From Candidatus Nomurabacteria bacterium (GTDB lineage: Bacteria > Patescibacteriota > Minisyncoccia > Phycocordibacterales > UBA9973): a stretch of DNA of 64,000 bases. The stretch covers positions 196,141 to 260,140 of the forward strand of contig CP064958.1 in NCBI GenBank assembly GCA_016699085.1, in the 5' to 3' direction. This document shows, piece by piece, positions 44,248 to 53,087 of this stretch. The notes under the pieces were generated by a model, which was not told where the DNA came from, searched no databases, and saw nothing but the letters and a program-made list of their open reading frames with translations. Position 1 is the first letter of the stretch; every line of letters starts with the position of its first letter. The position numbers were made by a program, and so were the translations under genes.

Positions 44248-45504
44248 TTATTTGTTGTTTATAATATCTTCGATTTCCATAAGTCTATTATATTTGCAGA
44301 CTCTCTCAGCACGAACAAGTGATCCCGACTTAATATAGTCACTGGCAAGTCCAACTGCAAGATCGGCAATAAACGTATCTGTCGTGTCACCGGATCGATG
44401 GGATACAAACGGAGACCAGCCCTGCTTTTTTGTCAGCTGAATCGCCTCTATAGTTTCAGTCAACGTGCCAATTTGATTTGGTTTGATAAGCACAGCATTG
44501 ATCGCCTGTTTGTCGATAGCAACTTGTATTCTTTTACTATTTGTCACCGTGAGATCGTCGCCAACGATTTTTATCTTGTCGCCCAATCTTTTTCTCATTT
44601 CGACAAAACCCTCCCAGTCGTCCTCTGCTAGACCATCCTCGATAGAAATAATTGGATGTCTTTCGATCAATTCCTCATACCAATCAATTACTTGATTGGT
44701 TGTTCTATCTGCGCTTTCTCCTGCAATTTTCAATCGGTATATACCATTCTTATAGAAACTCGATGCAGCCGCGTCTATTGCGATCTTAACCTGGTCTAAT
44801 GTGTAGTTAGCAGCTACAATCGCCTCTTCAATAAGTTCCAATGCCTCTTCAGAGGTTGTGAGTCTTGGCGCAAAACCACCTTCGTCGCCGACACTTGTTG
44901 TATAACCCTTAGATTTCAATATCTTTTTCAATGACAAAATGATTTCCCCCGTAGCTTGCACTTTCCGACGGAAAGAATCAAAACCAATGGGAGCAAGCAT
45001 GAATTCCTGAATATCTAAGCCACTATCAGCATGCTTGCCACCATTAATAACATTAAACATTGGTTGTGGAAGTTTAAAGGTCATGGTACTCCCCAGTCCC
45101 CCCAAATATTCGTACAGCTCAACCTTTTGCTCTTCTGCACAAGCACGGGCAAAAGCCAAGGAGACTCCGAGAAGTGCATTTGCACCGAGGCGTGATTTGT
45201 TTTCCGTACCATCTCGCTGAATTAGAGCCATATCGAGACTAGTCTGATCAAAGTCTTTATCTTTGATAGACTCATAAATTTCTGTATTTACATTTTCGAT
45301 AGCTCTAAGTACGCCGAGTCCTCCGTATCTGCTCTGATCGTGATCACGCAATTCAAGAACCTCATGAACTCCAGTACTTGCTCCGGAGGGGACAGATGCC
45401 TTTGCCATCACACCACCGCGCGAGAGTGTACAGCAAACCTCTAACGTTGGATTGCCACGGGAATCGATAATCTCTTTTGCTGTAACTGATTGTATCTTTG
45501 CCAT
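44248..45504 (-). CDS. eno: Enolase
   Basis: MAKIQSVTAKEIIDSRGNPTLEV and full-length enolase signature regions. Confidence 0.93.
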   Translation of the reverse strand: MAKIQSVTAKEIIDSRGNPTLEVCCTLSRGGVMAKASVPSGASTGVHEVLELRDHDQSRYGGLGVLRAIENVNTEIYESIKDKDFDQTSLDMALIQRDGTENKSRLGANALLGVSLAFARACAEEQKVELYEYLGGLGSTMTFKLPQPMFNVINGGKHADSGLDIQEFMLAPIGFDSFRRKVQATGEIILSLKKILKSKGYTTSVGDEGGFAPRLTTSEEALELIEEAIVAANYTLDQVKIAIDAAASSFYKNGIYRLKIAGESADRTTNQVIDWYEELIERHPIISIEDGLAEDDWEGFVEMRKRLGDKIKIVGDDLTVTNSKRIQVAIDKQAINAVLIKPNQIGTLTETIEAIQLTKKQGWSPFVSHRSGDTTDTFIADLAVGLASDYIKSGSLVRAERVCKYNRLMEIEDIINNK

Positions 45505-45505
45505 A

Positions 45506-46318
45506 TTATATGCTTTTCAGTTGGTTAAAAGTGACACTACCAGAGAGATGTTTCTCTGCTTCAATAATAATTTTCTCCATCATTATTACCGCTTCGACTG
45601 GATACTTACCTTTTGCTGTTTCGTCCGAAAGCATAACTGCATCAGCACCCTCGAGTATGGCAGTAGCCACATCGGTCACTTCCGCCCGAGACGGTGTAAG
45701 GTTTTCTACCATAGAAAGAAGCATCTGGGTAGCGACGATGACAGGTTTGCCTGCTTTTCGTGCTTTTTTGATTATCCGATCTTGTATAAACGGTATCTGT
45801 TCGAGAGGCACCTCATTGCCGAGATCGCCACGGGCTATCATAACAGCATCAGCTTCGGCAATAATCTGTTCGAGTGACAGAAGTGCTATAGCTCTTTCTA
45901 TTTTTGCTATTACCATCTGCCTACCTCCAAAACCATGCACCAATCCTCTACATTTTTTTATATCCTCCGGACCAGCGACGAAAGAAACAGCTACGTAGTC
46001 AACAGCATGAAGAGCAGCAAATTTTATGAACTCCTCATCATTGCTCGTAATCGATGAGAGCGCTCGAGAGTCATACGTATGACTCTCATTTTCCTGGACC
46101 CGAGGACCAGGTAAGTCGATGATAATCGGAATTCGCCGACCACATTCTTTTTCGAGTTGTCGTATAAAAGTGATTTGTTCTGCCCATAAGGCGAGATCGC
46201 CCCAGGAAAAGTTAAGTCTCACCACATCTAGCTGGTGACTCACCATCGCCCTTAGGATGTCTGCTTTTTCTGACACCGGACCGAGTGTGACTACAATTTG
46301 TGCTTTGGAATTTGTCAT
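45506..46318 (-). CDS. pyk: Minimal pyruvate kinase (A-domain barrel only; B lid and C-terminal domains absent)
   Basis: KAQIVVTLGP, VRLNFSWG, MIARGDLG, ATQMLLSM, MLSDETAKGKYP. Only 270 aa. The B-domain position is filled by a short linker. Confidence 0.65.
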   Translation of the reverse strand: MTNSKAQIVVTLGPVSEKADILRAMVSHQLDVVRLNFSWGDLALWAEQITFIRQLEKECGRRIPIIIDLPGPRVQENESHTYDSRALSSITSNDEEFIKFAALHAVDYVAVSFVAGPEDIKKCRGLVHGFGGRQMVIAKIERAIALLSLEQIIAEADAVMIARGDLGNEVPLEQIPFIQDRIIKKARKAGKPVIVATQMLLSMVENLTPSRAEVTDVATAILEGADAVMLSDETAKGKYPVEAVIMMEKIIIEAEKHLSGSVTFNQLKSI

Positions 46319-46947
46319 GAGGGTACTTGTGATTCAGTCTGGCGAATCTCCTTGTGTATCATATGGCCAGTCTCGTCAATATCATAAATAAGAATCGAGC
46401 CAAAGGGTATCTCGATATCTGCTATATTCTCGTCGGAAATGTTCTCAATATATTTGACGAGCGTGCGAAGTGAATTACCATGCGCTACGACCAGTATATT
46501 TTTATTTTCCATAACTCGTGGCAAGATTTTTTCTAAAAAATAAGGGACCGCGCGATCATAGACCATCTTAAGCGATTCGCCATTGGGTATGGGATATTCC
46601 CAGCCTCGTCGGAGTTTCTTAAATTCTTCTTCGCCGAGAATCTTCTCCATTTCCCATTTATTCTTTCCTGTATAGTCACCATAATCGCGTTCATTCAAAG
46701 CGGCAGCGTGTTCCGTTGGTACTTTGTATCGCTTACATACATTGAGCATGCATGAAAGTGTCTCAATAGAACGTACGAGCATCGAAGCAAAGGCATAGTC
46801 GATCTCGATATCCTGTATGAGGGATCCCATATCTTCGGATTTATTGAATCCATATTGGTCCAAATGGCGATCACGCAAACCCGTCCATTTGCCGAGCTTG
46901 TTCCATTCTGATTCGTGATGTCGTACCAAGAGAAGTTTGCTTGTCAT
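46315..46947 (-). CDS. gpmA: 2,3-bisphosphoglycerate-dependent phosphoglycerate mutase (histidine phosphatase family)
   Basis: LLLVRHHESEWN (RHG-type variant) and VVAHGNSLR second-His motif. Confidence 0.8.
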   Translation of the reverse strand: MTSKLLLVRHHESEWNKLGKWTGLRDRHLDQYGFNKSEDMGSLIQDIEIDYAFASMLVRSIETLSCMLNVCKRYKVPTEHAAALNERDYGDYTGKNKWEMEKILGEEEFKKLRRGWEYPIPNGESLKMVYDRAVPYFLEKILPRVMENKNILVVAHGNSLRTLVKYIENISDENIADIEIPFGSILIYDIDETGHMIHKEIRQTESQVPS

Positions 46948-46950
46948 AGT

Positions 46951-47925
46951 TTAAGGATTAACAATATTCTCTGGAGTTCTGCCTTCAAAGAAGCTAATAA
47001 TATTGCGAGCTACAATTTCAGCCATCTGGTTTCGAGCCCCAATACTTGCGGAGGCGATATGTGGAGTCAGAATAATATTTTGTAATCTGAGAAGTCCCGG
47101 AACGGTTTTGGGTTCAAATTCGAAAACATCGAGAGCTGCACCGCTAATACTTTTTTCTCTCAAAGCCACCTCAAGAGCCTTCTCATCAATAATTGGACCA
47201 CGTGAAGTATTGATGAGAAAAGCAGATGGTTTCATAAGTCGAAGGCGTGCTTCATTTATCAGATGCCTTGTCGAATCAAGGAGTGGTACATGCAGACTCG
47301 TGACATCCGCCTGGGGTAAAAGCGTCTCAATTGTACTACAGTATGTCGCACCACATTCTTTTTCGATACGATCATTTCTAGCCACGTCAGTGTAGATAAT
47401 TTTCATACCAAGACCCTTAGCGTAATAAGCAACTCTCTCACCGATCCGACCGGCCCCAACAAGACCAAGTGTGCTCCCAAGAATGTCTGTACCGATAAAC
47501 TGCATCGGCGCCCAGCCTTTATACTTTCCTCGCCTGACAAACTCATCAGCTTCGACAATCCTCGCCGCAAGAGCAAGCATGAGAGCTATTGTGTGTTCTG
47601 CAACAGCTTCAGTGGAGAGAGGAGTGGGGGCATTTGTTACTGTTATTCCAAGTTTTTTTGCTTCTGTCACATCTATATTGTCGAAACCAGTAGCATAGTT
47701 GGCATATAGCTTTATATTTGGCACATGATGAAACACCTTTGCGTCTATACTGTCAGTCAAAAGGACGAGTACGGCATCATATGGTTTCTTTTTCAAAAAT
47801 GAAATGAGTTTTTTTTGAGAAAGTGGAGAATCGTTTGGATTGATATCCACCGTATATCCTTTTTGCTTCAGCATATTAATTCCAATATTAGGAATTTGTC
47901 GAGTTACAAAAATATTCTTTGACAT
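46951..47925 (-). CDS. D-isomer-specific 2-hydroxyacid dehydrogenase (glycerate dehydrogenase/hydroxypyruvate reductase-like)
   Basis: GLVGAGRIG NAD-binding loop and conserved catalytic R/E/H layout. Confidence 0.8.
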   Translation of the reverse strand: MSKNIFVTRQIPNIGINMLKQKGYTVDINPNDSPLSQKKLISFLKKKPYDAVLVLLTDSIDAKVFHHVPNIKLYANYATGFDNIDVTEAKKLGITVTNAPTPLSTEAVAEHTIALMLALAARIVEADEFVRRGKYKGWAPMQFIGTDILGSTLGLVGAGRIGERVAYYAKGLGMKIIYTDVARNDRIEKECGATYCSTIETLLPQADVTSLHVPLLDSTRHLINEARLRLMKPSAFLINTSRGPIIDEKALEVALREKSISGAALDVFEFEPKTVPGLLRLQNIILTPHIASASIGARNQMAEIVARNIISFFEGRTPENIVNP

Positions 47926-48012
47926 ACCTATATCTTAGCAGGTATCTACACAAATTGCTGACTTACACAAGGGAAGCTAGTAAATGGTATTGTGTTTTCC
48001 TAAAGAAACAAT

Positions 48013-48083
48013 CTGCACTGTTCAAATCTGAGCGCGAGTGAACCATTTCACTCGCTTATTCACCACTCGCCTTGCTCGTGGGT
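48013..48083. repeat. Repeat A copy 1 (71 bp, contains a 9-bp perfect inverted repeat; ends in GGGT)
   Basis: CTGCACTGTTCAAATCTGAGCGCGAGTGAACCATTTCACTCGCTTATTCACCACTCGCCTTGCTCGTGGGT. Identical except one base to 50021-50091. Confidence 0.85.
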
Positions 48084-48319
48084 CCTTCCAAATTAAAATT
48101 AAGAACCATATTCCGATAAAGCCAATAGTACCAGGGTTTAGGGTTTCCAGAAATGGCAAATCTAATGGTACCACAGGGACAATAGGCCGAATACTGTATT
48201 GGCATAGAGTTGAAAATGACCTGTATACCCTTTCGAATATTATGAAGGAGTATATGGGAAAGGTGCAGAAGAAGACTGATAAGACTGACTTCTTTTCACA
48301 GTTTGATGAACCTGTTTAG

Positions 48320-48468
48320 GATTGATGTCTGGGAAGCAAGATTTGCTGATGCTATCAAGCAGAAAGTAACTCTCGCTAAAGAATTAGGCCTTGCAGGCAT
48401 TTCTCTATTTAAAATAGATGGCAATGAAGATCCAAATATTTGGACTATGCTTTCTACTGCAAAGTAAA
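48320..48468 (+). pseudogene. Decayed duplicate of the 3' end of a GH18 gene (paralog of the 3' end of 42341-43555)
   Basis: Translates in frame to [48 protein letters not shown]. About 88% nucleotide identity to 43436-43555. No upstream ORF continuity. Confidence 0.7.
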
Positions 48469-48493
48469 TAGATTATATTTTTGTCGAATTTTT

Positions 48494-49873
48494 TCATATA
48501 TATTTCTCTATCAACTCACTCAATTTACCACTGGCAAGCATTACTCCAATTTCATCATCGATAAGATTTTTTAGTGAGAGATCGTCTTTCTTGAAAACAA
48601 AAGTGTTTTCATATATGCGAATAGGGTCGCTTGTTGCTTGAACCAATTTTTTCTGTTTTGTTTTTGTAAAAATTTCCATCAGATTAATTTCTGCAAATGT
48701 CATATCTCCCTTTCCGTCAGTAACAAACTGTAGTAACTCTTGCGGGTCTGAAAGCTGCGGCACAAACACTAGTCGTGCATTTGGAAAATCAGCTTTTGCG
48801 ATCGAATGAGATATATCGTTTTCTTTTACCACCACTCTCAATTCGGGGCTGTTCTTTAGTTTTTCATATTCAATGCCTGGCAATGTCCATGGATATGCAT
48901 TACTCGTGTATATAGATTTTGAAAAAGATGCTTTCTCCTTTCGTTCAGGCGTCGGCCAAACAGTACTTCCAAATAAGTCAAAACGATTATGGTCCAAACC
49001 ATCGATCACAACACCATATCCAGTTTCTTCACTCCACTTGATCTGCCATTCATGCTTCTTTGCTATAGCAGTAATAATCTCATAGAAAATACCCGAGAAA
49101 GTGTCGGTTTCGTGATTATAAAATAGTGCAGGTGGATAATTGGTGAAAGCTACACGTAGCGTCTTTGTCTTTTCTACGCGATCAAGAGCGGAAGTATAAC
49201 TTCCATTCTCATTATCTTCATCGCCCCACACAGAACGATACGTCTCCCAAGGATTTTCCATCAGCAGAAAATCGACACTATCTTTTGACTTTCCGTCGTA
49301 CTTTCCTGCGATATAGTTTTCATAGACCGGCCAGTTTTTGTGATAAATGTAGACCACTTTTTCAGCACCTAAAAACCCCGGCGCAAAATCAAGAAACGCG
49401 AATTCTGATAGTAAGTAGTGAACTGCTGTTTTTACCGCAACAGCTACATCTGCGATTTCTTTCTTCGATCCTGTAATAACACCTTTTGTGGTCTCATTCG
49501 CATCGTACTCAAACTGTTTGTTTGATTCGTATAGCTGTCGAATATACTCATAGGACTTTTTATAATTCTCATTTGGCTCTATTTCATTTTCCCAATCTAT
49601 GATTCTCACTTGGTCTTTTGTATATCCAAGTTGGACGACGGCTCGCTCAGTTCTATTCTTCAGGAGATTTCCTTGTGGCAGGGCCTTATCGCGCCGCGCG
49701 CGATTTTCAGGATATCCAAGGGCAATATAAGTCGAGATAGCGGGAATATCAGCGATCATAACAGCAACTTTTCCATAGCGGTCAATGGCCGTCTTGAGGA
49801 GGTATTTAATCTCTTCATCCTTGAAGTAGCTATTGCCGGGACTCATACCGATGATTGGATATATATTCTGCAT
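48494..49873 (-). CDS. Cyclodipeptide synthase (tRNA-dependent CDPS) fused to a C-terminal SBP_bac_3-like (type-2 periplasmic-binding-fold) domain
   Basis: N-half: IIGMSPGNSYFKDEEIKYLL (CDPS catalytic-Ser motif, as in GISPFNSRFS/ISAGNSYFS), NRTERAV, HYLLSEFAFL (Y-x3-E catalytic pair), YHKNWP. C-half: LRVAFTNYPP...GIFYEIITAIAK...ERKEKASFSKSIYTS aligns along its length with GlnH-type solute-binding proteins. No TM or signal segment. Confidence 0.7.
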   Translation of the reverse strand: MQNIYPIIGMSPGNSYFKDEEIKYLLKTAIDRYGKVAVMIADIPAISTYIALGYPENRARRDKALPQGNLLKNRTERAVVQLGYTKDQVRIIDWENEIEPNENYKKSYEYIRQLYESNKQFEYDANETTKGVITGSKKEIADVAVAVKTAVHYLLSEFAFLDFAPGFLGAEKVVYIYHKNWPVYENYIAGKYDGKSKDSVDFLLMENPWETYRSVWGDEDNENGSYTSALDRVEKTKTLRVAFTNYPPALFYNHETDTFSGIFYEIITAIAKKHEWQIKWSEETGYGVVIDGLDHNRFDLFGSTVWPTPERKEKASFSKSIYTSNAYPWTLPGIEYEKLKNSPELRVVVKENDISHSIAKADFPNARLVFVPQLSDPQELLQFVTDGKGDMTFAEINLMEIFTKTKQKKLVQATSDPIRIYENTFVFKKDDLSLKNLIDDEIGVMLASGKLSELIEKYI

Positions 49874-49925
49874 ATTTTTAATTCACGTTGTTTTAGTGAT
49901 TACTTAAACTCATTTAGTTTTGATT

Positions 49926-49995
49926 GGGTGCCTATCGGGATTTTCCCGCGACTCAAAGTTCGTCGCCACTCATTTTAGTCTAGATACCAGCTCGT
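49926..49995. repeat. Repeat B copy 2: exact 18-nt tRNA-His 3'-end copy plus conserved box
   Basis: GGGTGCCTATCGGGATTT is identical to the tRNA-His 3' end at 50088-50105. It is followed by the same box as at 44179-44229. Confidence 0.85.
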
Positions 49996-50020
49996 CATTT
50001 TTTCTGCTGAAAAAATATTA

Positions 50021-50091
50021 CTGCACTTTTCAAATCTGAGCGCGAGTGAACCATTTCACTCGCTTATTCACCACTCGCCTTGCTCGTGGGT
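50021..50091. repeat. Repeat A copy 2, abutting and overlapping the last 4 nt of tRNA-His
   Basis: Same 71-bp sequence as 48013-48083. Its final GGGT is the tRNA-His 3' terminus. Confidence 0.85.
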
Positions 50092-50161
50092 GCCTATCGG
50101 GATTTGAACCCGAACTGAGAGTTCCACAAACTCTAGTGCTAACCATTACACTATAGGCACC
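50088..50161 (-). tRNA. tRNA-His (GTG) with encoded G-1
   Basis: Minus-sense GGTGCCTATAGTGTAATGGTTAGCACTAGAGTTTGTGGAACTCTCAGTTCGGGTTCAAATCCCGATAGGCACCC. Cloverleaf fits with anticodon loop TTGTGGA. Confidence 0.85.
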
Positions 50162-50275
50162 ATATTACTTGTTTGTAATTCTTAGTTTTTCTCCTTATCC
50201 AAAAACTACAAACTAGTCCCTGTTATAGCAAAATTTGCCTGAAAAATCTAGCTTTTTGAAATTACTACTACGTTC

Positions 50276-50833
50276 TTAGCTATACGTTGGGACTTGTTCA
50301 CCTTTGTCTTCTATGTGATTAACTAATCGTGCCAAGGCATAGAGAACAGATGATAGCCGGTTAAGGTAACGAAGTGTTTCAGCGTCGACGAGATTGTTTT
50401 CTTCTTGATATGCCACAATGAGCCGCTCGAGACGCCTTGCTACCGTTCGAGTAACATCAAATCTCGCACCTGCTTCAGTTGCCCCGGGAATAAAAAAAGT
50501 TTTGATCGGCGGCAAAATATTTTCGATAGTTGTCGTAAGTGTTTCGAGGTGGACTATTTTTTCTGACTGGATCTTCATGTCTGCACCAGCGATTTCAGCT
50601 TGGATGATAAACATATCCTGCTGCAAATCCAAAACAGCATCAGACAGTAATTTCCCATCTGGCAATGCGTACTTTTTTTCATTAACTGAAGCTCTTGCAA
50701 GACCAAGAAACGAATTGAGCTCATCAAGTGTACCCAAGACTTCAAAGACGAGTGCACTTTTAGAAACTCGAACTCCCTTTTCAGTATTAAAAAGTTTGCT
50801 TGTTCCCTGATCACCTTTGCCTGTATAGAGCAT
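50276..50833 (-). CDS. ATP:cob(I)alamin adenosyltransferase, PduO-type
   Basis: MLYTGKGDQGTSKL...GTLDELNSFLGLA, matching the PduO/MMAB N-terminus. Confidence 0.7.
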   Translation of the reverse strand: MLYTGKGDQGTSKLFNTEKGVRVSKSALVFEVLGTLDELNSFLGLARASVNEKKYALPDGKLLSDAVLDLQQDMFIIQAEIAGADMKIQSEKIVHLETLTTTIENILPPIKTFFIPGATEAGARFDVTRTVARRLERLIVAYQEENNLVDAETLRYLNRLSSVLYALARLVNHIEDKGEQVPTYS

Positions 50834-50834
50834 A

Positions 50835-51833
50835 TTATTTTTTTGCTACGTAGATATAGTCATAGAGTTGACTACCAATGATCGCAAGCACGAGTAGCGT
50901 GAGATAGAAAACAATAAGCGTTGCAAATGAAAAAGACACATTACGAAGTGCCCCAAGTACAAACGTAAAGTACCACGTGGTGATCGATATAGCGCCGAGC
51001 GCATATGAGAGATGACGAAGCCTATGCAGCTCACCAGGCTTGTGCGGATGCGGTTCACCAAAGGTAATATGCACAAGCTTCGGTGCAATAATGATATTAA
51101 GGAGAAATCCGTTGACGATCAGTACTACTACCGCTATCATCTTGATCAAGAATTTCGAAGACTCGGCAAGTGTGTCTGCTTGTGGCAAATAAAGCCCAAC
51201 ACCACTTGCAACCAGTATACCTAGCGCACACCAAATGACATGTGAAAGCGTATTCATTATGTCTGATTCTTCTTCAGATATTCTATAGTCTCGTAAGAAC
51301 TTAAAGAAAAAGATATCAGTAATCGTTGCTGCACCAACACCTATCGCCATGCCGAACAAATGAAATATCGTTATGATTCGTTTGTGCTCAAGCAAAAACG
51401 GCGTGATATTGATCGGTATACTCGTCACCGTCAATAGAAAAATAACCGTACATAGGAATGCCGAGAAGAGACACCAGGTACACCACTGCTTGAGAACGAA
51501 AGCTTGAATAGATACTAAATACAGGGAGAACAAGAATGAAAAGAAAGAAATAACGAGCACCACGAACGAAAACCACCCTGGGGTACCATTCTTGTAAGCC
51601 AATAAGAAAAGGTGGGATACAGCAATGAGCGCATAGTAGGCAAGACCAAACAGTTCTACAGGCACGCCAAGAAATTTTGAGTAGTTACTATGAACGACAC
51701 TTTCGCAACTCGAACGAAGCGGACAGACGAGTGGCTGTTTAGCTTTCTTCTTGGTATGAATATAGAACGCTAAAATAAATCCGCAAAAGCCTGCCAATAT
51801 TAAGAAAAGTTGAGTTAGTGTCTCTGGTATCAT
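50835..51833 (-). CDS. Vitamin K epoxide reductase (VKOR) family membrane protein with extra C-terminal TM domain
   Basis: CPLRSSCESVVHSNYSKFLGVPVELFGLAYY loop Cys pair and CTWC redox motif. Confidence 0.7.
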   Translation of the reverse strand: MIPETLTQLFLILAGFCGFILAFYIHTKKKAKQPLVCPLRSSCESVVHSNYSKFLGVPVELFGLAYYALIAVSHLFLLAYKNGTPGWFSFVVLVISFFSFLFSLYLVSIQAFVLKQWCTWCLFSAFLCTVIFLLTVTSIPINITPFLLEHKRIITIFHLFGMAIGVGAATITDIFFFKFLRDYRISEEESDIMNTLSHVIWCALGILVASGVGLYLPQADTLAESSKFLIKMIAVVVLIVNGFLLNIIIAPKLVHITFGEPHPHKPGELHRLRHLSYALGAISITTWYFTFVLGALRNVSFSFATLIVFYLTLLVLAIIGSQLYDYIYVAKK

Positions 51834-52168
51834 ACACGATGCATACTATCATCAATCTTGGCAGCTACAATAAAATCATTTTCAGTGAGCTCACCGATTG
51901 AGTGCGTTGAGAGTGTCAAAGTAACTTTATTATATTCAATCATAATATCAGGATGGTGCCCTTCGCCTTCGGCAATATCAGCAACCATATCGACGAAATT
52001 CACCGCACCGATAAAGTCCTTGAACTCAAACATTCGAGATATACTTTTGCCATCTTTGGCAAGGGCCCAGTGGTGTACCTCATCGAGAAAATCCTGCAAA
52101 TCCGCCTGGGCAATACCCTTGGTTTTTTTGTCTTCACACGGTTTACATTTTTTTCGAGCGAGCTCCAT
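51830..52168 (-). CDS. Pterin-4a-carbinolamine dehydratase (PCD/DCoH)
   Basis: EGEGHHPDIMIEYNKVTLTLSTHSIGELTENDF. Confidence 0.8.
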   Translation of the reverse strand: MELARKKCKPCEDKKTKGIAQADLQDFLDEVHHWALAKDGKSISRMFEFKDFIGAVNFVDMVADIAEGEGHHPDIMIEYNKVTLTLSTHSIGELTENDFIVAAKIDDSMHRV

Positions 52169-52331
52169 ATTAATAGCTACCTGCTTCTACATTGGCAATA
52201 CTAACTTGAAGCGCAATTGCCTGAACATTACGAGTAAAAAATACGGCAAAGAGGATAAGCGCGATCCCCACGATGAGCAGTGTCCCACTACTAGCTTTTG
52301 ATTGAAATTGTTTCATATAAATACATGCTAA

Positions 52332-53087
52332 TTATAAAGTTGTAAAACTGAGTATATCACCATTTAAACGCTGATTGTTTTCAGGTTTGGGTGTTGCGTT
52401 AAAATCAAGCACTGCTTTGTAATAATATGTTGTATGTGGCTGCAAATTGATTAAAGGACTCGAAAACGGCCCAATAACCCGAAAGGAAATGCCTCCAGTT
52501 GAGGTAAAATTTAAACTTTCCTTTGAAGTGCCATATAAAAAATGAGGTAGATTTGCCGGAGGTATAGTATTGGCAGTATTTGTAATAATCCCATTTAAAA
52601 TTACTGACGTTTCTGTTACATTTGTTGCTGTCATGGTTGCGACTGAATAATTTTCAATTTTATTAGCTGTCTCTCTTCCTTCTTGCATTCTTTTTTCTCC
52701 ATAGCCTTGCCCATAGAGTCGCTGCTCTTCCTTTATGCTATTTTTATGTTGGATATAATCTACAAATGGTTGCCTGCACAAAACTAGAACAGGAACAATA
52801 AAGCTCACTACAAACATAATCGGAAAATAGGATAGCGTCGAATATTTTTTTATCGGCACAAGCCAAATAAGAAACAAAAGAATAGGTGGAGCAAAAATTA
52901 CAAAGATAAAAAAATATGCCAAATATGCCACTGGTACAATTGAAGGCGCAAAAGCTAAAGCAGAGAAAAAGAAAAGCAGAATAACAATAGACAAAATTTG
53001 TGCCAACGGAATCAAGAAAGTCCATTTACTAATAATTTTTCTCTTTTCAATGGGCTGACTATTTGCAACTTGATTTTCAATTTCCAT
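52332..53087 (-). CDS. Membrane protein with C-terminal extracytoplasmic domain, unknown function
   Basis: Three to four TM helices, then a beta-rich C-terminus. Confidence 0.35.
   Translation of the reverse strand: MEIENQVANSQPIEKRKIISKWTFLIPLAQILSIVILLFFFSALAFAPSIVPVAYLAYFFIFVIFAPPILLFLIWLVPIKKYSTLSYFPIMFVVSFIVPVLVLCRQPFVDYIQHKNSIKEEQRLYGQGYGEKRMQEGRETANKIENYSVATMTATNVTETSVILNGIITNTANTIPPANLPHFLYGTSKESLNFTSTGGISFRVIGPFSSPLINLQPHTTYYYKAVLDFNATPKPENNQRLNGDILSFTTL

What the first reader, a model, noticed from the sequence alone, without database searches (positions are those of the whole stretch)
48494..49873. Cyclodipeptide synthase fused to a cytoplasmic SBP_bac_3-type ligand-binding domain, sitting directly beside tRNA-His
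The first ~220 residues carry the three hallmark CDPS motifs. These are the catalytic-serine box G-M-S-P-G-N-S-Y-F, the Y-x3-E pair in HYLLSEFAFL, and the YHKNWP tyrosine. All are spaced as in AlbC/YvmC (recalled from memory). The last ~240 residues align along their length with glutamine/amino-acid-binding proteins: LRVAF..GIFYEI..AIAK...ERKEKASFSKSIYTS versus GlnH LVVAT..GFDVDL..AIAK...ERKKAIDFSDGYYKS. No signal peptide or TM segment separates the halves. I do not recognise CDPS enzymes with a fused solute-binding fold. It could act as an allosteric amino-acid sensor or a product/substrate-holding module. The gene lies about 215 nt downstream of tRNA-His on the same strand, and CDPSs use aminoacyl-tRNAs as substrates. 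No tailoring enzymes (oxidase, P450, methyltransferase) are adjacent.
Basis: partly seen in the sequence, partly recalled or inferred. Interest (0 to 1): 0.85.

Follow-up and report, generated by a model that had tools for sequence, protein, structure and literature searches.

The report
Cyclodipeptide synthase fused to binding domain
This is a real, intact gene from a tiny candidate-phyla-radiation bacterium that joins a tRNA-dependent cyclic-dipeptide-making enzyme to a cytoplasmic small-molecule-binding domain; the architecture is conserved and was already noted, though never tested, in the literature, and the neighbouring tRNA-His marks a mobile-DNA insertion site rather than a substrate link.

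Summary
Window 48494-49873 (-) encodes a 459-aa protein. Its N-half is an NYH-type cyclodipeptide synthase (CDPS) with all catalytic residues. Its C-half is an SBP_bac_3 / type-II periplasmic-binding fold with no signal peptide or TM segment. It is not a chimera: 117 of the 120 best homologue clusters, at 50-81% identity, carry both domains. All named sources but one short contig labelled 'archaeon' are Patescibacteria. The identical protein is GenBank QQR50528.1.

The novelty claim is overstated. Gondry et al. [quoted passage not shown] Neither was assayed.

The tRNA-His link is not functional. The gene lies in a 2008-nt unit bracketed by 71-nt direct repeats that start inside the tRNA's 3' end, and a 19-nt copy of that end lies upstream. 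In the two closest relatives the gene sits 7 kb downstream of tRNA-His, behind a large serine recombinase and defence genes. Other lineages sit by different tRNAs or none, and the P1 pocket lacks the known His-recognition residues.

No partner gene is conserved. The binding domain keeps an invariant Arg/Glu amino-acid clamp and aromatic residues but lacks the cyclohexadienyl dehydratase general acid. The best reading is a ligand-sensing module controlling a stand-alone CDPS (inferred). Product and ligand are unknown.

The parts
48494..49873 (-). Complete CDPS-SBP fusion gene (459 aa plus stop). Identical to GenBank QQR50528.1, Ca. Nomurabacteria.
49259..49873 (-). N-terminal NYH-type cyclodipeptide synthase domain (residues 1-205). 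Catalytic residues are S11, N14, Y153, E157, Y177, H178. P1 pocket is IGMAWFLY and P2 pocket is TGVGKWP. The N-terminus is unusually short, with only 10 residues before the catalytic Ser.
49169..49258 (-). Inter-domain segment (residues 206-235). It holds the invariant E206-N207-P208-x-E210-T211 motif, then an acidic loop of lower confidence (pLDDT 69-81).
48497..49168 (-). C-terminal SBP_bac_3 / type-II periplasmic-binding-protein fold (residues 236-459), cytoplasmic. Invariant residues are R311, W306, Y286, E282, E283 and D353; E395 is present in 110 of 111. L398 occupies the position of the cyclohexadienyl dehydratase general acid.
50088..50160 (-). tRNA-His (GTG), 214 nt upstream of the gene on the same strand. 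Best read as the insertion site.
50021..50091 (-). 71-nt direct repeat, copy 1. It begins with the last bases of tRNA-His (ACCCA) and contains the hairpin GCGAGTGAA-atgg-TTCACTCGC.
48013..48083 (-). 71-nt direct repeat, copy 2 (70 of 71 identical), 2008 nt from copy 1 and just upstream of the 2-hydroxyacid dehydrogenase gene. The two copies bracket the CDPS-SBP unit.
49925..49943 (-). Exact 19-nt duplicate of the 3' end of tRNA-His (AAATCCCGATAGGCACCCA), 51 nt upstream of the start codon. Looks like an att-type remnant.
48084..48493 (.). 410-nt stretch between the gene's stop and repeat copy 2. It holds only two short + strand ORFs (93 and 54 aa) with no family match. Probable decayed island cargo.

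Best explanation
Shown:
- The gene is intact and encodes a soluble cytoplasmic protein of two domains.
- The N-domain is an NYH-subfamily cyclodipeptide synthase with every catalytic residue in place.
- The C-domain is a Venus-flytrap amino-acid-binding (SBP_bac_3) fold that has lost its export signal.
- The fusion is a conserved Patescibacteria family. It has no conserved partner gene, so the polypeptide is the whole system.
- The gene sits in a 2-kb unit flanked by 71-nt direct repeats that start in the 3' end of tRNA-His. In the closest relatives it is cargo of a serine-recombinase island at tRNA-His.

Inferred mechanism:
- Ser11 takes the aminoacyl group of a first aa-tRNA into the hydrophobic, aromatic-lined P1 pocket. 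A Leu, Met or Phe-like residue is most likely, and His is unlikely.
- A second aa-tRNA gives a dipeptidyl-enzyme, which Tyr177 helps to cyclise into a 2,5-diketopiperazine.
- The C-domain does no chemistry. It binds an amino-acid-like small molecule through the invariant Arg311/Glu395 clamp, the aromatic residues W306, Y286 and F243, and an acidic rim.
- Closure of the domain is transmitted through the invariant ENPxET linker and tunes CDPS activity. Cyclodipeptide output would then follow the intracellular, presumably host-derived, pool of that ligand.

The tRNA-His adjacency is an integration scar, not a substrate relationship.
For: Architecture and fold.

Catalytic residues: the hexad S-N-Y-E-Y-H is present in 146 of 149 fused homologues.

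Family: 117 of the 120 best clusters carry both Pfam domains. Thirty-two distinct fused groups were recovered from independent assemblies. About 8-10 full-length representatives exist at the 50% level.

Binding site: R311 is present in 111/111, E395 in 110/111, and W306, Y286, E282 and D353 in 111/111. These align with the carboxylate-binding Arg and with Asp170 of AncCDT-1/CDT. A pocket this conserved argues for a working ligand site.

No partner: the most widely shared neighbour family occurs in only 3 of 32 groups. No Pfam or NCBIfam family recurs in more than 3 of 143 neighbours.

Precedent (established knowledge): SBP_bac_3 modules act as ligand sensors or allosteric modules in MltF, BvgS, RmcA and iGluRs. 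All of these appear among the structural hits.

Island: repeats; tRNA-His followed by a large serine recombinase whose 3' end overlaps the tRNA, plus defence cargo, in L001 (91% identity) and L002 (77%).

His unlikely: ParcuCDPS needs Y55/E174/Y189 in P1, and Y55V+E174L switches it to Leu/Phe. Here those positions are M39/F160/Y175.
Against: - No experiment exists for any family member. Product, ligand and any allostery are inference only.
- The model coordinates and PAE were not available to me. I could not check whether the flytrap cleft faces the active site or whether the interface is confident.
- A clade of true stand-alone ~205-aa CDPSs, 54-60% identical to the N-half, has the same P1 pocket. 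So the CDPS does not need the SBP domain to exist.
- The P2 pocket differs between fused and stand-alone forms. That would also fit a substrate-related rather than a regulatory role.
- No empty tRNA-His site was found, and the window unit contains no recombinase. The insertion history is therefore circumstantial.
Confidence: 0.5

Rival explanations
1. The SBP domain is a cargo-handling module, not a regulator. It either captures the newly made cyclodipeptide for hand-off to an exporter or to protect the cell, or it holds a free amino acid or amine close to the active site as a co-substrate.
For: Fused proteins have a wider P2 pocket (G/A/S at position 131, G at 135) than the true stand-alone clade (E and Y at those positions), while P1 is the same. 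Aromatic invariant pocket residues W306, Y286 and F243 would suit a diketopiperazine or an aromatic ligand. MFS or EamA transporters sit next to the gene in some lineages.
Against: The invariant Arg311/Glu395 pair is the classic clamp for a free alpha-carboxylate and alpha-ammonium. A diketopiperazine ring has neither group. Transporter neighbours are not conserved: MFS_1 occurs in only 2 of 143 neighbours. Cyclodipeptides generally need no carrier (general knowledge).
Confidence: 0.2
2. The C-domain is a catalytic tailoring domain. It would be an SBP-fold enzyme like cyclohexadienyl dehydratase (CDT) that modifies the cyclodipeptide or a precursor.
For: The best sequence and structure matches include CDT and its reconstructed ancestors. 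CDPSs fused to tailoring domains (P450, methyltransferase) are known. No separate tailoring genes are present.
Against: The CDT general acid Glu173 aligns with Leu398. That position is L, I, T or F in all 111 family members and never Glu. The top hits are consensus-like ancestral binders (AncCDT-1 binds Arg/Lys/His) and ordinary amino-acid SBPs score as well. SBP-fold enzymes are rare (general knowledge).
Confidence: 0.07
3. The tRNA-His neighbour is functional. The gene would be co-transcribed with tRNA-His and the enzyme would use His-tRNA(His) to make a histidine-containing cyclodipeptide.
For: The tRNA is on the same strand, 214 nt away, with no terminator-like site between it and the gene. 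tRNA-His lies upstream within 7.2 kb in four lineages: the window, L001, L002 and L010. The only characterised Patescibacteria CDPS uses His. The acidic SBP pocket could suit a cationic amino acid.
Against: In L001 and L002 a recombinase and 7 kb of mobile or defence cargo lie between the tRNA and the gene. Other lineages sit by tRNA-Leu, Met, Glu, Ser or Gly, or by none, although their P1 pockets are near-identical. About 7 of ~53 loci have any tRNA within 1 kb; by my rough estimate that is about what chance gives at ~1 tRNA per 13 kb. P1 lacks the His-recognition residues Y55 and E174. HisRS is not a recurrent neighbour. The direct repeats and the duplicated tRNA end indicate an insertion.
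Confidence: 0.07
4. The gene is defence-island cargo. The SBP domain would sense an infection-linked metabolite and the CDPS would respond by making a signal or toxic cyclodipeptide, or by draining aa-tRNA.
For: In L002 the gene is flanked by PD-T7-4 (E 1.6e-85), a SoFic-like Fic protein and an Aga-type REase. In L001 it is flanked by PDC-S01, a PIF1/RecD-like helicase and a defence-type reverse transcriptase. Both islands lie behind a serine recombinase at tRNA-His.
Against: The protein itself has no PADLOC match. Most of the 32 lineages place it among housekeeping genes. No homologue was found in viral contigs or plasmids. The association holds for only 2 of 32 groups.
Confidence: 0.05
5. 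The fusion is an assembly chimera or a gene-calling artefact.
For: None found.
Against: The ORF is uninterrupted. The same architecture occurs in more than 100 clusters from NCBI, JGI, ENA and Logan assemblies, and one member was seen on 76 contigs. The linker motif is invariant. The two-domain model is confident.
Confidence: 0.01

Closest known systems
CDPS-'ABC transporter domain' fusions listed by Gondry et al. 2018 (Front Microbiol 9:46, PMC5816076): Ca. Kerfeldbacteria OGY85379.1 and Ca. Moranbacteria OGI43181.1
   Same: Same family. The Kerfeldbacteria protein is P0085, 56% identical over the full length with both Pfam domains. The pocket signatures match: VGLAWFLY/TAVGKWT and IGFAWFLY/TGVGKWE against IGMAWFLY/TGVGKWP here. 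All are in the NYH subfamily.
   Different: This is a different species and sequence. Neither published member was assayed, so they supply no function. The paper calls the extra part an 'ABC transporter domain'; it is more precisely a signal-less solute-binding (SBP_bac_3) domain with no transporter genes nearby.
Characterised NYH cyclodipeptide synthases: YvmC/BtCDPS (cyclo-Leu-Leu), AlbC (cyclo-Phe-Leu), Rv2275 (cyclo-Tyr-Tyr)
   Different: Only 20-30% identical. The N-terminus is about 20-25 residues shorter. A 250-aa binding domain is attached. There are no cyclodipeptide oxidase, P450 or methyltransferase neighbours. The product is unknown.
ParcuCDPS (Parcubacteria RAAC4_OD1_1; cyclo-His-Pro and cyclo-His-Glu), the only characterised CDPS from this phylum
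   Same: Same phylum-level origin, and both are stand-alone CDPS genes.
   Different: ParcuCDPS is in the XYP subfamily and has a single domain. It has polar P1 residues Y55/E174/Y189 for histidine. It did not match this protein in the PDB sequence search at E up to 1, although its structure 7QB8 is deposited.
Amino-acid solute-binding proteins and cyclohexadienyl dehydratase (AncCDT-1, PaCDT, GlnH/LAO/HisJ class)
   Different: No signal peptide and no ABC permease or ATPase partner. Trp306 replaces the Ser/Thr of the GMTIT motif. The domain lacks the CDT general acid (Leu398 in place of Glu173). It is fused to an enzyme in the cytoplasm.
MltF and other enzymes or sensors carrying an SBP_bac_3 regulatory module (BvgS, RmcA, iGluR ligand-binding domains)
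   Different: Those modules are periplasmic or extracellular, and their outputs are transglycosylase, kinase, EAL or channel domains. No CDPS has been shown to be regulated in this way.

Membership tests
Cyclodipeptide synthase (PF16715 / TIGR04539) | Profile HMM score above the curated cut-off | tested here: met
   PF16715 97 bits against 27; TIGR04539 118.8 bits against 45
Cyclodipeptide synthase (PF16715 / TIGR04539) | Rossmann-type CDPS fold | tested here: met
Cyclodipeptide synthase (PF16715 / TIGR04539) | Catalytic Ser37, Tyr178, Glu182 and Tyr202 (AlbC numbering) | tested here: met
   S11, Y153, E157 and Y177 by alignment to AlbC. Conserved in 146 of 149 fused homologues
NYH subfamily of CDPS | Asn40, Tyr202 and His203 | tested here: met
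   N14, Y177 and H178. Gondry 2018 lists the relatives under NYH
Cyclodipeptide synthase (PF16715 / TIGR04539) | Forms a cyclodipeptide from two aminoacyl-tRNAs | not testable with these tools
   Needs heterologous expression with LC-MS, or an in vitro assay
CDPS biosynthetic gene cluster | Adjacent tailoring enzyme (cyclodipeptide oxidase, P450, methyltransferase, prenyltransferase) | tested here: not met
   Window neighbours are housekeeping genes. No recurrent neighbour in 32 lineages
SBP_bac_3 (PF00497) type-II periplasmic binding fold | Profile HMM above cut-off and a two-lobe hinge fold | tested here: met
ABC-importer solute-binding protein (functional class) | Signal peptide or lipobox for export | tested here: not met
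   The domain starts at residue ~236, behind a cytoplasmic enzyme. There is no hydrophobic segment (max KD19 1.56) and the linker is acidic
ABC-importer solute-binding protein (functional class) | Encoded with ABC permease and ATPase genes | tested here: not met
   None among the Pfam-scanned genes flanking it in the window, 44248-53087. In the relatives' called-gene tables the only ABC-type neighbour is the FtsE/FtsX-like pair upstream in L014, and none ranks among the recurrent neighbour families
Amino-acid-binding SBPs (LAO/HisJ/GlnH/AncCDT-1 class) | Arg that binds the alpha-carboxylate and an acidic residue that binds the alpha-ammonium | tested here: met
   R311 in 111/111. E395 in 110/111, aligned to Asp170 of AncCDT/CDT. 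The Ser/Thr of the GMTIT motif is replaced by an invariant Trp306
Cyclohexadienyl dehydratase | General acid Glu173 | tested here: not met
   Leu398 aligns with Glu173 of AncCDT-3 and AncCDT-5. The position is L/I/T/F in all 111 homologues. The role of Glu173 is taken from bioRxiv 10.1101/157495
tRNA-linked integrated island | Direct repeats bracketing the insert, one overlapping the tRNA 3' end, or a partial tRNA duplicate | tested here: met
   71-nt repeats at 48013-48083 and 50021-50091 (70/71 identical). A 19-nt tRNA-His 3' copy lies at 49925-49943. The 71-mer occurs nowhere else in the window
tRNA-linked integrated island | Integrase or recombinase inside the insert | tested here: not met
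   None in the 2-kb window unit. Present next to tRNA-His in relatives L001 and L002 as a large serine recombinase

The most novel reading that the evidence does not exclude
The fused flytrap domain is not just a sensor. It delivers a free amino acid, or another amine-bearing ligand, into the widened P2 site. The aminoacyl-Ser11 intermediate would then be resolved by a non-tRNA acceptor. The family would be a one-tRNA peptide-bond-forming enzyme making a product other than a classical cyclodipeptide.

A milder version of this reading is the first ligand-gated CDPS, which would couple cyclodipeptide signalling to host-derived amino-acid supply in episymbiotic Patescibacteria.
Probability: 0.08. 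Interest if true: 0.8.

Novelty: new member of a known kind. Interest (0 to 1): 0.4.

Why it matters
Cyclodipeptide synthases divert charged tRNAs into small bioactive molecules. No CDPS is known to be controlled by a built-in ligand sensor, and only one CDPS from the very large Patescibacteria radiation has been characterised.

This family is widespread there. It is compact, with one gene and no partners, and it keeps both a complete active site and a complete-looking ligand pocket. That makes it an easy system for two questions: which cyclodipeptide these reduced-genome episymbionts make, and whether amino-acid availability gates its production.

The finding is not a new architecture, because the literature already recorded it in passing. 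The tRNA-His adjacency adds nothing mechanistic. The practical value is as a well-defined target for expression and ligand screening.

Tried and rejected
1. Chimera or artefact: rejected.
2. Cyclohexadienyl-dehydratase-like catalysis: rejected, because the general acid is absent in all members.
3. Conserved operon partner: none found by all-vs-all clustering of neighbours in 32 lineages, nor by Pfam or NCBIfam scans of 143 neighbours. MetRS+MsrB recur in only 2 groups and Peptidase_S51 in 3.
4. T-box or other RNA element between the tRNA and the gene: Rfam finds only the tRNA. Promoter and terminator scans are no better than shuffles.
5. Empty tRNA-His site, or the 71-mer in relatives: not found in the 84 fetched loci.
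6. att repeats in other tRNA-adjacent loci (L010, L045, L048, L049, L025) and second tRNA-His 3' copies in L001 and L002: none.
7. Compositional anomaly of the 2-kb unit: not evident.
8. Identity of the 410-nt remnant downstream of the gene: no Pfam hit even at E up to 10, and no blastx hit to the loci. My impression that the 54-aa ORF resembles a GH18 C-terminus comes from memory and is unsupported.
9. Phage or plasmid carriage: no fused homologue in IMG/VR or PLSDB.
10. The exact protein is not in the contig index.
11. The afdb50 fold library was unavailable.
13. Product prediction: the supplement sheets with the signatures of the characterised groups were truncated. Only a qualitative prediction of a hydrophobic P1 substrate was possible.
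Full report
**Observation.** Window 48494-49873 on the minus strand is an uninterrupted 459-codon ORF with an ATG start. An in-frame TGA lies 12 nt upstream (sequence). tRNA-His(GTG) lies at 50088-50160 on the same strand, 214 nt upstream.
- Pfam places a cyclodipeptide synthase (CDPS) domain at residues 7-192 (97 bits, cut-off 27).
- Pfam places an SBP_bac_3 domain at residues 240-459 (63.7 bits, cut-off 26.4).
- NCBIfam TIGR04539 'tRNA-dependent cyclodipeptide synthase' scores 118.8 bits (cut-off 45).
- Against solved structures, the N-half matches YvmC (E 6.5e-13), BtCDPS, AlbC and Rv2275. The C-half matches AncCDT-1, cyclohexadienyl dehydratases and amino-acid-binding proteins.
- The alignment to AlbC gives S11=S37, N14=N40, Y153=Y178, E157=E182, Y177=Y202 and H178=H203.
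- An AlphaFold2 model built on 79 homologues has pLDDT 90.9 and pTM 0.82.
- There is no hydrophobic segment of TM character, and the inter-domain loop is acidic.
- Neighbouring genes are housekeeping genes with no tailoring enzyme.

**Is it real and how common is it?** The identical protein is GenBank QQR50528.1, 'tRNA-dependent cyclodipeptide synthase [Candidatus Nomurabacteria bacterium]', on an 808-kb contig.
- A search of 5.8 billion clusters returned 252 relatives. Of the best 120 (50-81% identical, mostly 445-500 aa), 117 carry both Pfam domains; the other three are fragments.
- Named sources are Nomurabacteria, Parcubacteria/Paceibacterota, Saccharibacteria, Berkelbacteria, Uhrbacteria and Kerfeldbacteria, plus one short contig labelled 'archaeon'.
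- Metagenome and genome scans gave 40 fused loci falling into 32 groups at 90% identity.
- The exhaustive representative search found about 8-10 full-length fused representatives at the 50% level. It also found stand-alone CDPSs at 35-50% identity and ordinary leader-bearing SBPs at 28-35% identity.
- The chimera caveat is therefore refuted.
- No fused homologue occurs in IMG/VR viral contigs or in PLSDB plasmids.

**Prior knowledge.** Gondry et al. [quoted passage not shown]
- Their supplementary table lists Ca. Kerfeldbacteria OGY85379.1 (P1 VGLAWFLY, P2 TAVGKWT) and Ca. Moranbacteria OGI43181.1 (IGFAWFLY, TGVGKWE). [quoted passage not shown]
- The Kerfeldbacteria protein is my hit P0085, 56% identical.
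- My independent mapping gives IGMAWFLY / TGVGKWP for the window protein. It belongs to that already-noticed but uncharacterised group.
- Full-text searches found no paper that characterises it.

**The tRNA-His neighbour.** Several results argue that it marks an insertion site rather than a substrate relationship.
- The gene lies in a 2008-nt unit bracketed by 71-nt direct repeats at 48013-48083 and 50021-50091 (70 of 71 identical).
  - The second copy begins with the last five bases of the tRNA.
  - The 71-mer occurs nowhere else in the window or in 84 related loci.
- An exact 19-nt copy of the tRNA's 3' end sits at 49925-49943, 51 nt before the start codon.
- The 410 nt between the stop codon and the distal repeat contain only two short unidentifiable ORFs.
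- In the two closest species-level relatives, tRNA-His lies about 7 kb upstream on the same strand.
  - These are L001 (91% identity) and L002 (77%).
  - The tRNA is followed immediately by a large serine recombinase whose ORF end overlaps the tRNA's 3' end.
  - The cargo that follows is variable. L001 has a PDC-S01-type AAA ATPase, a PIF1/RecD-like helicase and a defence-type reverse transcriptase. L002 has TrmB, a SoFic-like Fic protein, PD-T7-4 (E 1.6e-85) and an Aga-type REase.
- Across the family, adjacency is not conserved.
  - L010 has tRNA-His 1.7 kb upstream.
  - Other lineages sit next to tRNA-Leu(CAA) and tRNA-Met, tRNA-Glu, tRNA-Ser or tRNA-Gly. Most have no tRNA within reach.
  - About 7 of ~53 distinct loci have any tRNA within 1 kb. 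By my rough estimate that is about what the local density gives (5 tRNAs in 64 kb).
- The P1 pocket is nearly invariant across these lineages: [IV]G[LMF]AWF[LM]Y.
  - It carries M39 and F160 where the histidine-using ParcuCDPS requires Y55 and E174.
  - In that enzyme, Y55V+E174L switches specificity to Leu/Phe.
- HisRS is not a recurrent neighbour.
- Rfam finds nothing but the tRNA in the region. The promoter and terminator scan is uninformative.
- Caveats: I found no empty site. The window unit contains no recombinase. No att repeats were detected in the other loci.

**What the protein most likely does.**
- Shown:
  - A complete NYH CDPS active site is conserved in 146 of 149 fused homologues.
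  - The ENPxET linker is invariant.
  - The C-domain keeps the carboxylate-clamping Arg of amino-acid SBPs (R311, 111/111).
  - An acidic residue sits at the position of the ammonium-binding Asp (E395, 110/111, aligned with Asp170 of AncCDT/CDT).
  - Y286, W306, E282, E283 (110/111), D353 and F243 (110/111) are also invariant or nearly so.
- The cyclohexadienyl dehydratase general acid Glu173 aligns with Leu398. It is never Glu in 111 homologues, so a CDT-type enzyme is excluded.
- There is no export signal and no ABC transporter, so it is not a transport receptor.
- No neighbour family recurs in more than 3 of 32 lineages. The polypeptide therefore works alone.
- Inferred:
  - The N-domain makes a cyclodipeptide by the standard Ser-acyl ping-pong route.
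  - P1 is probably filled by a hydrophobic residue. Its pockets resemble those of the cyclo-Leu-Leu synthase YvmC, read.
  - The C-domain is a ligand-sensing flytrap for an amino-acid-like, possibly cationic, molecule that tunes synthase activity.
  - This is the same job SBP_bac_3 modules do in MltF, BvgS, RmcA and glutamate receptors. All of these appear among the matches.
- I put about 0.5 on this overall. The architecture and family membership are near certain. The regulatory role is about 0.4-0.45.

**Points that cut the other way.**
- A clade of true stand-alone ~205-aa CDPSs is 54-60% identical to the N-half and has the same short N-terminus and the same P1 pocket.
- Their P2 pocket differs: A/T-E-V-Y-R-W-P against T-[GAS]-V-G-K-W-x in fused proteins.
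- In an unsupported NJ tree this clade nests between a basal fused lineage and the rest of the fused clade. L050 and L059 look like truncated fusions.
- The SBP domain is therefore dispensable in some lineages, and its presence correlates with a wider P2 site. That keeps substrate or product handling alive as a rival (about 0.2).
- The defence-island association in L001 and L002 is noted, but it holds for only 2 of 32 groups and the protein has no PADLOC match.

**Verdict.** However, the architecture has been recorded before, the protein is routinely annotated as a CDPS, and the tRNA-His adjacency is best explained by island insertion. I rate it a new member of a known but uncharacterised kind, with interest 0.4.

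Noticed in passing
window 48013-48083 and 50021-50091; 49925-49943: 71-nt direct repeats (70/71 identical) bracket a 2008-nt unit containing the gene. One copy starts in the last 5 nt of tRNA-His. An exact 19-nt copy of the tRNA-His 3' end lies inside the unit. Together these look like att-type scars of an island insertion.
   Followed up: yes
L001 2766-15845; L002 2835-13856: In the two closest relatives, tRNA-His is followed by a large serine recombinase whose ORF end overlaps the tRNA. Then come defence-type genes (PDC-S01 ATPase, PIF1/RecD-like helicase and reverse transcriptase in L001; TrmB, SoFic-like Fic, PD-T7-4 and Aga-type REase in L002), with the CDPS-SBP gene among them. L002 also has a B12-binding radical SAM gene just downstream.
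   Followed up: partly
window 48038-48467 (+): Two short overlapping ORFs (93 and 54 aa) lie between the gene and the distal repeat. Neither has any family or locus match. They are probably decayed remnants of island cargo.
   Followed up: partly
L008 6502-10444; L021 2828-5119: In one lineage a methionyl-tRNA synthetase gene ends 3 nt before the CDPS-SBP start codon, and NUDIX and MsrB genes follow. MetRS and MsrB recur in a second group. This may be coincidence or a hint of a Met substrate.
   Followed up: partly
L044, L048, L049, L051, L052, L054-L057: There is a clade of true stand-alone ~205-aa CDPSs, 54-60% identical to the N-half, with the same P1 pocket but a different P2 pocket. Two of them start 10-18 nt after a tRNA gene: tRNA-Glu in L048 and tRNA-Ser in L049.
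   Followed up: partly
L040, L046, L047 (match regions): These distant homologues (36-41% identity) are broken into several short ORFs under genetic code 11. They are either pseudogenes or come from lineages with an alternative code, such as UGA-recoding Patescibacteria relatives.
   Followed up: no
L077 9875-14051; L080 1252-3086; L034 224-1165: Tandem stand-alone SBP genes with N-terminal extensions are the nearest non-fused relatives of the C-domain. One of them lies on the same contig as a fused gene. They are the likely evolutionary source of the fused domain.
   Followed up: no
window 45506-46318 (-): The pyruvate kinase ORF is only 270 aa. It matches the PK barrel domain in two stretches and has no C-terminal domain. 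It sits in an enolase / PK / phosphoglycerate-mutase-like / 2-hydroxyacid dehydrogenase run.
   Followed up: no
window 50835-51833 (-): A 332-aa membrane protein combines an N-terminal VKOR domain with a weak CopD-like C-terminal half. It lies between a cobalamin adenosyltransferase gene and a pterin-4a-carbinolamine dehydratase gene.
   Followed up: no
L017 6720-9404: In a 72%-identical relative, a 2-hydroxyacid dehydrogenase gene also neighbours the CDPS-SBP gene, but upstream rather than downstream as in the window.
   Followed up: no
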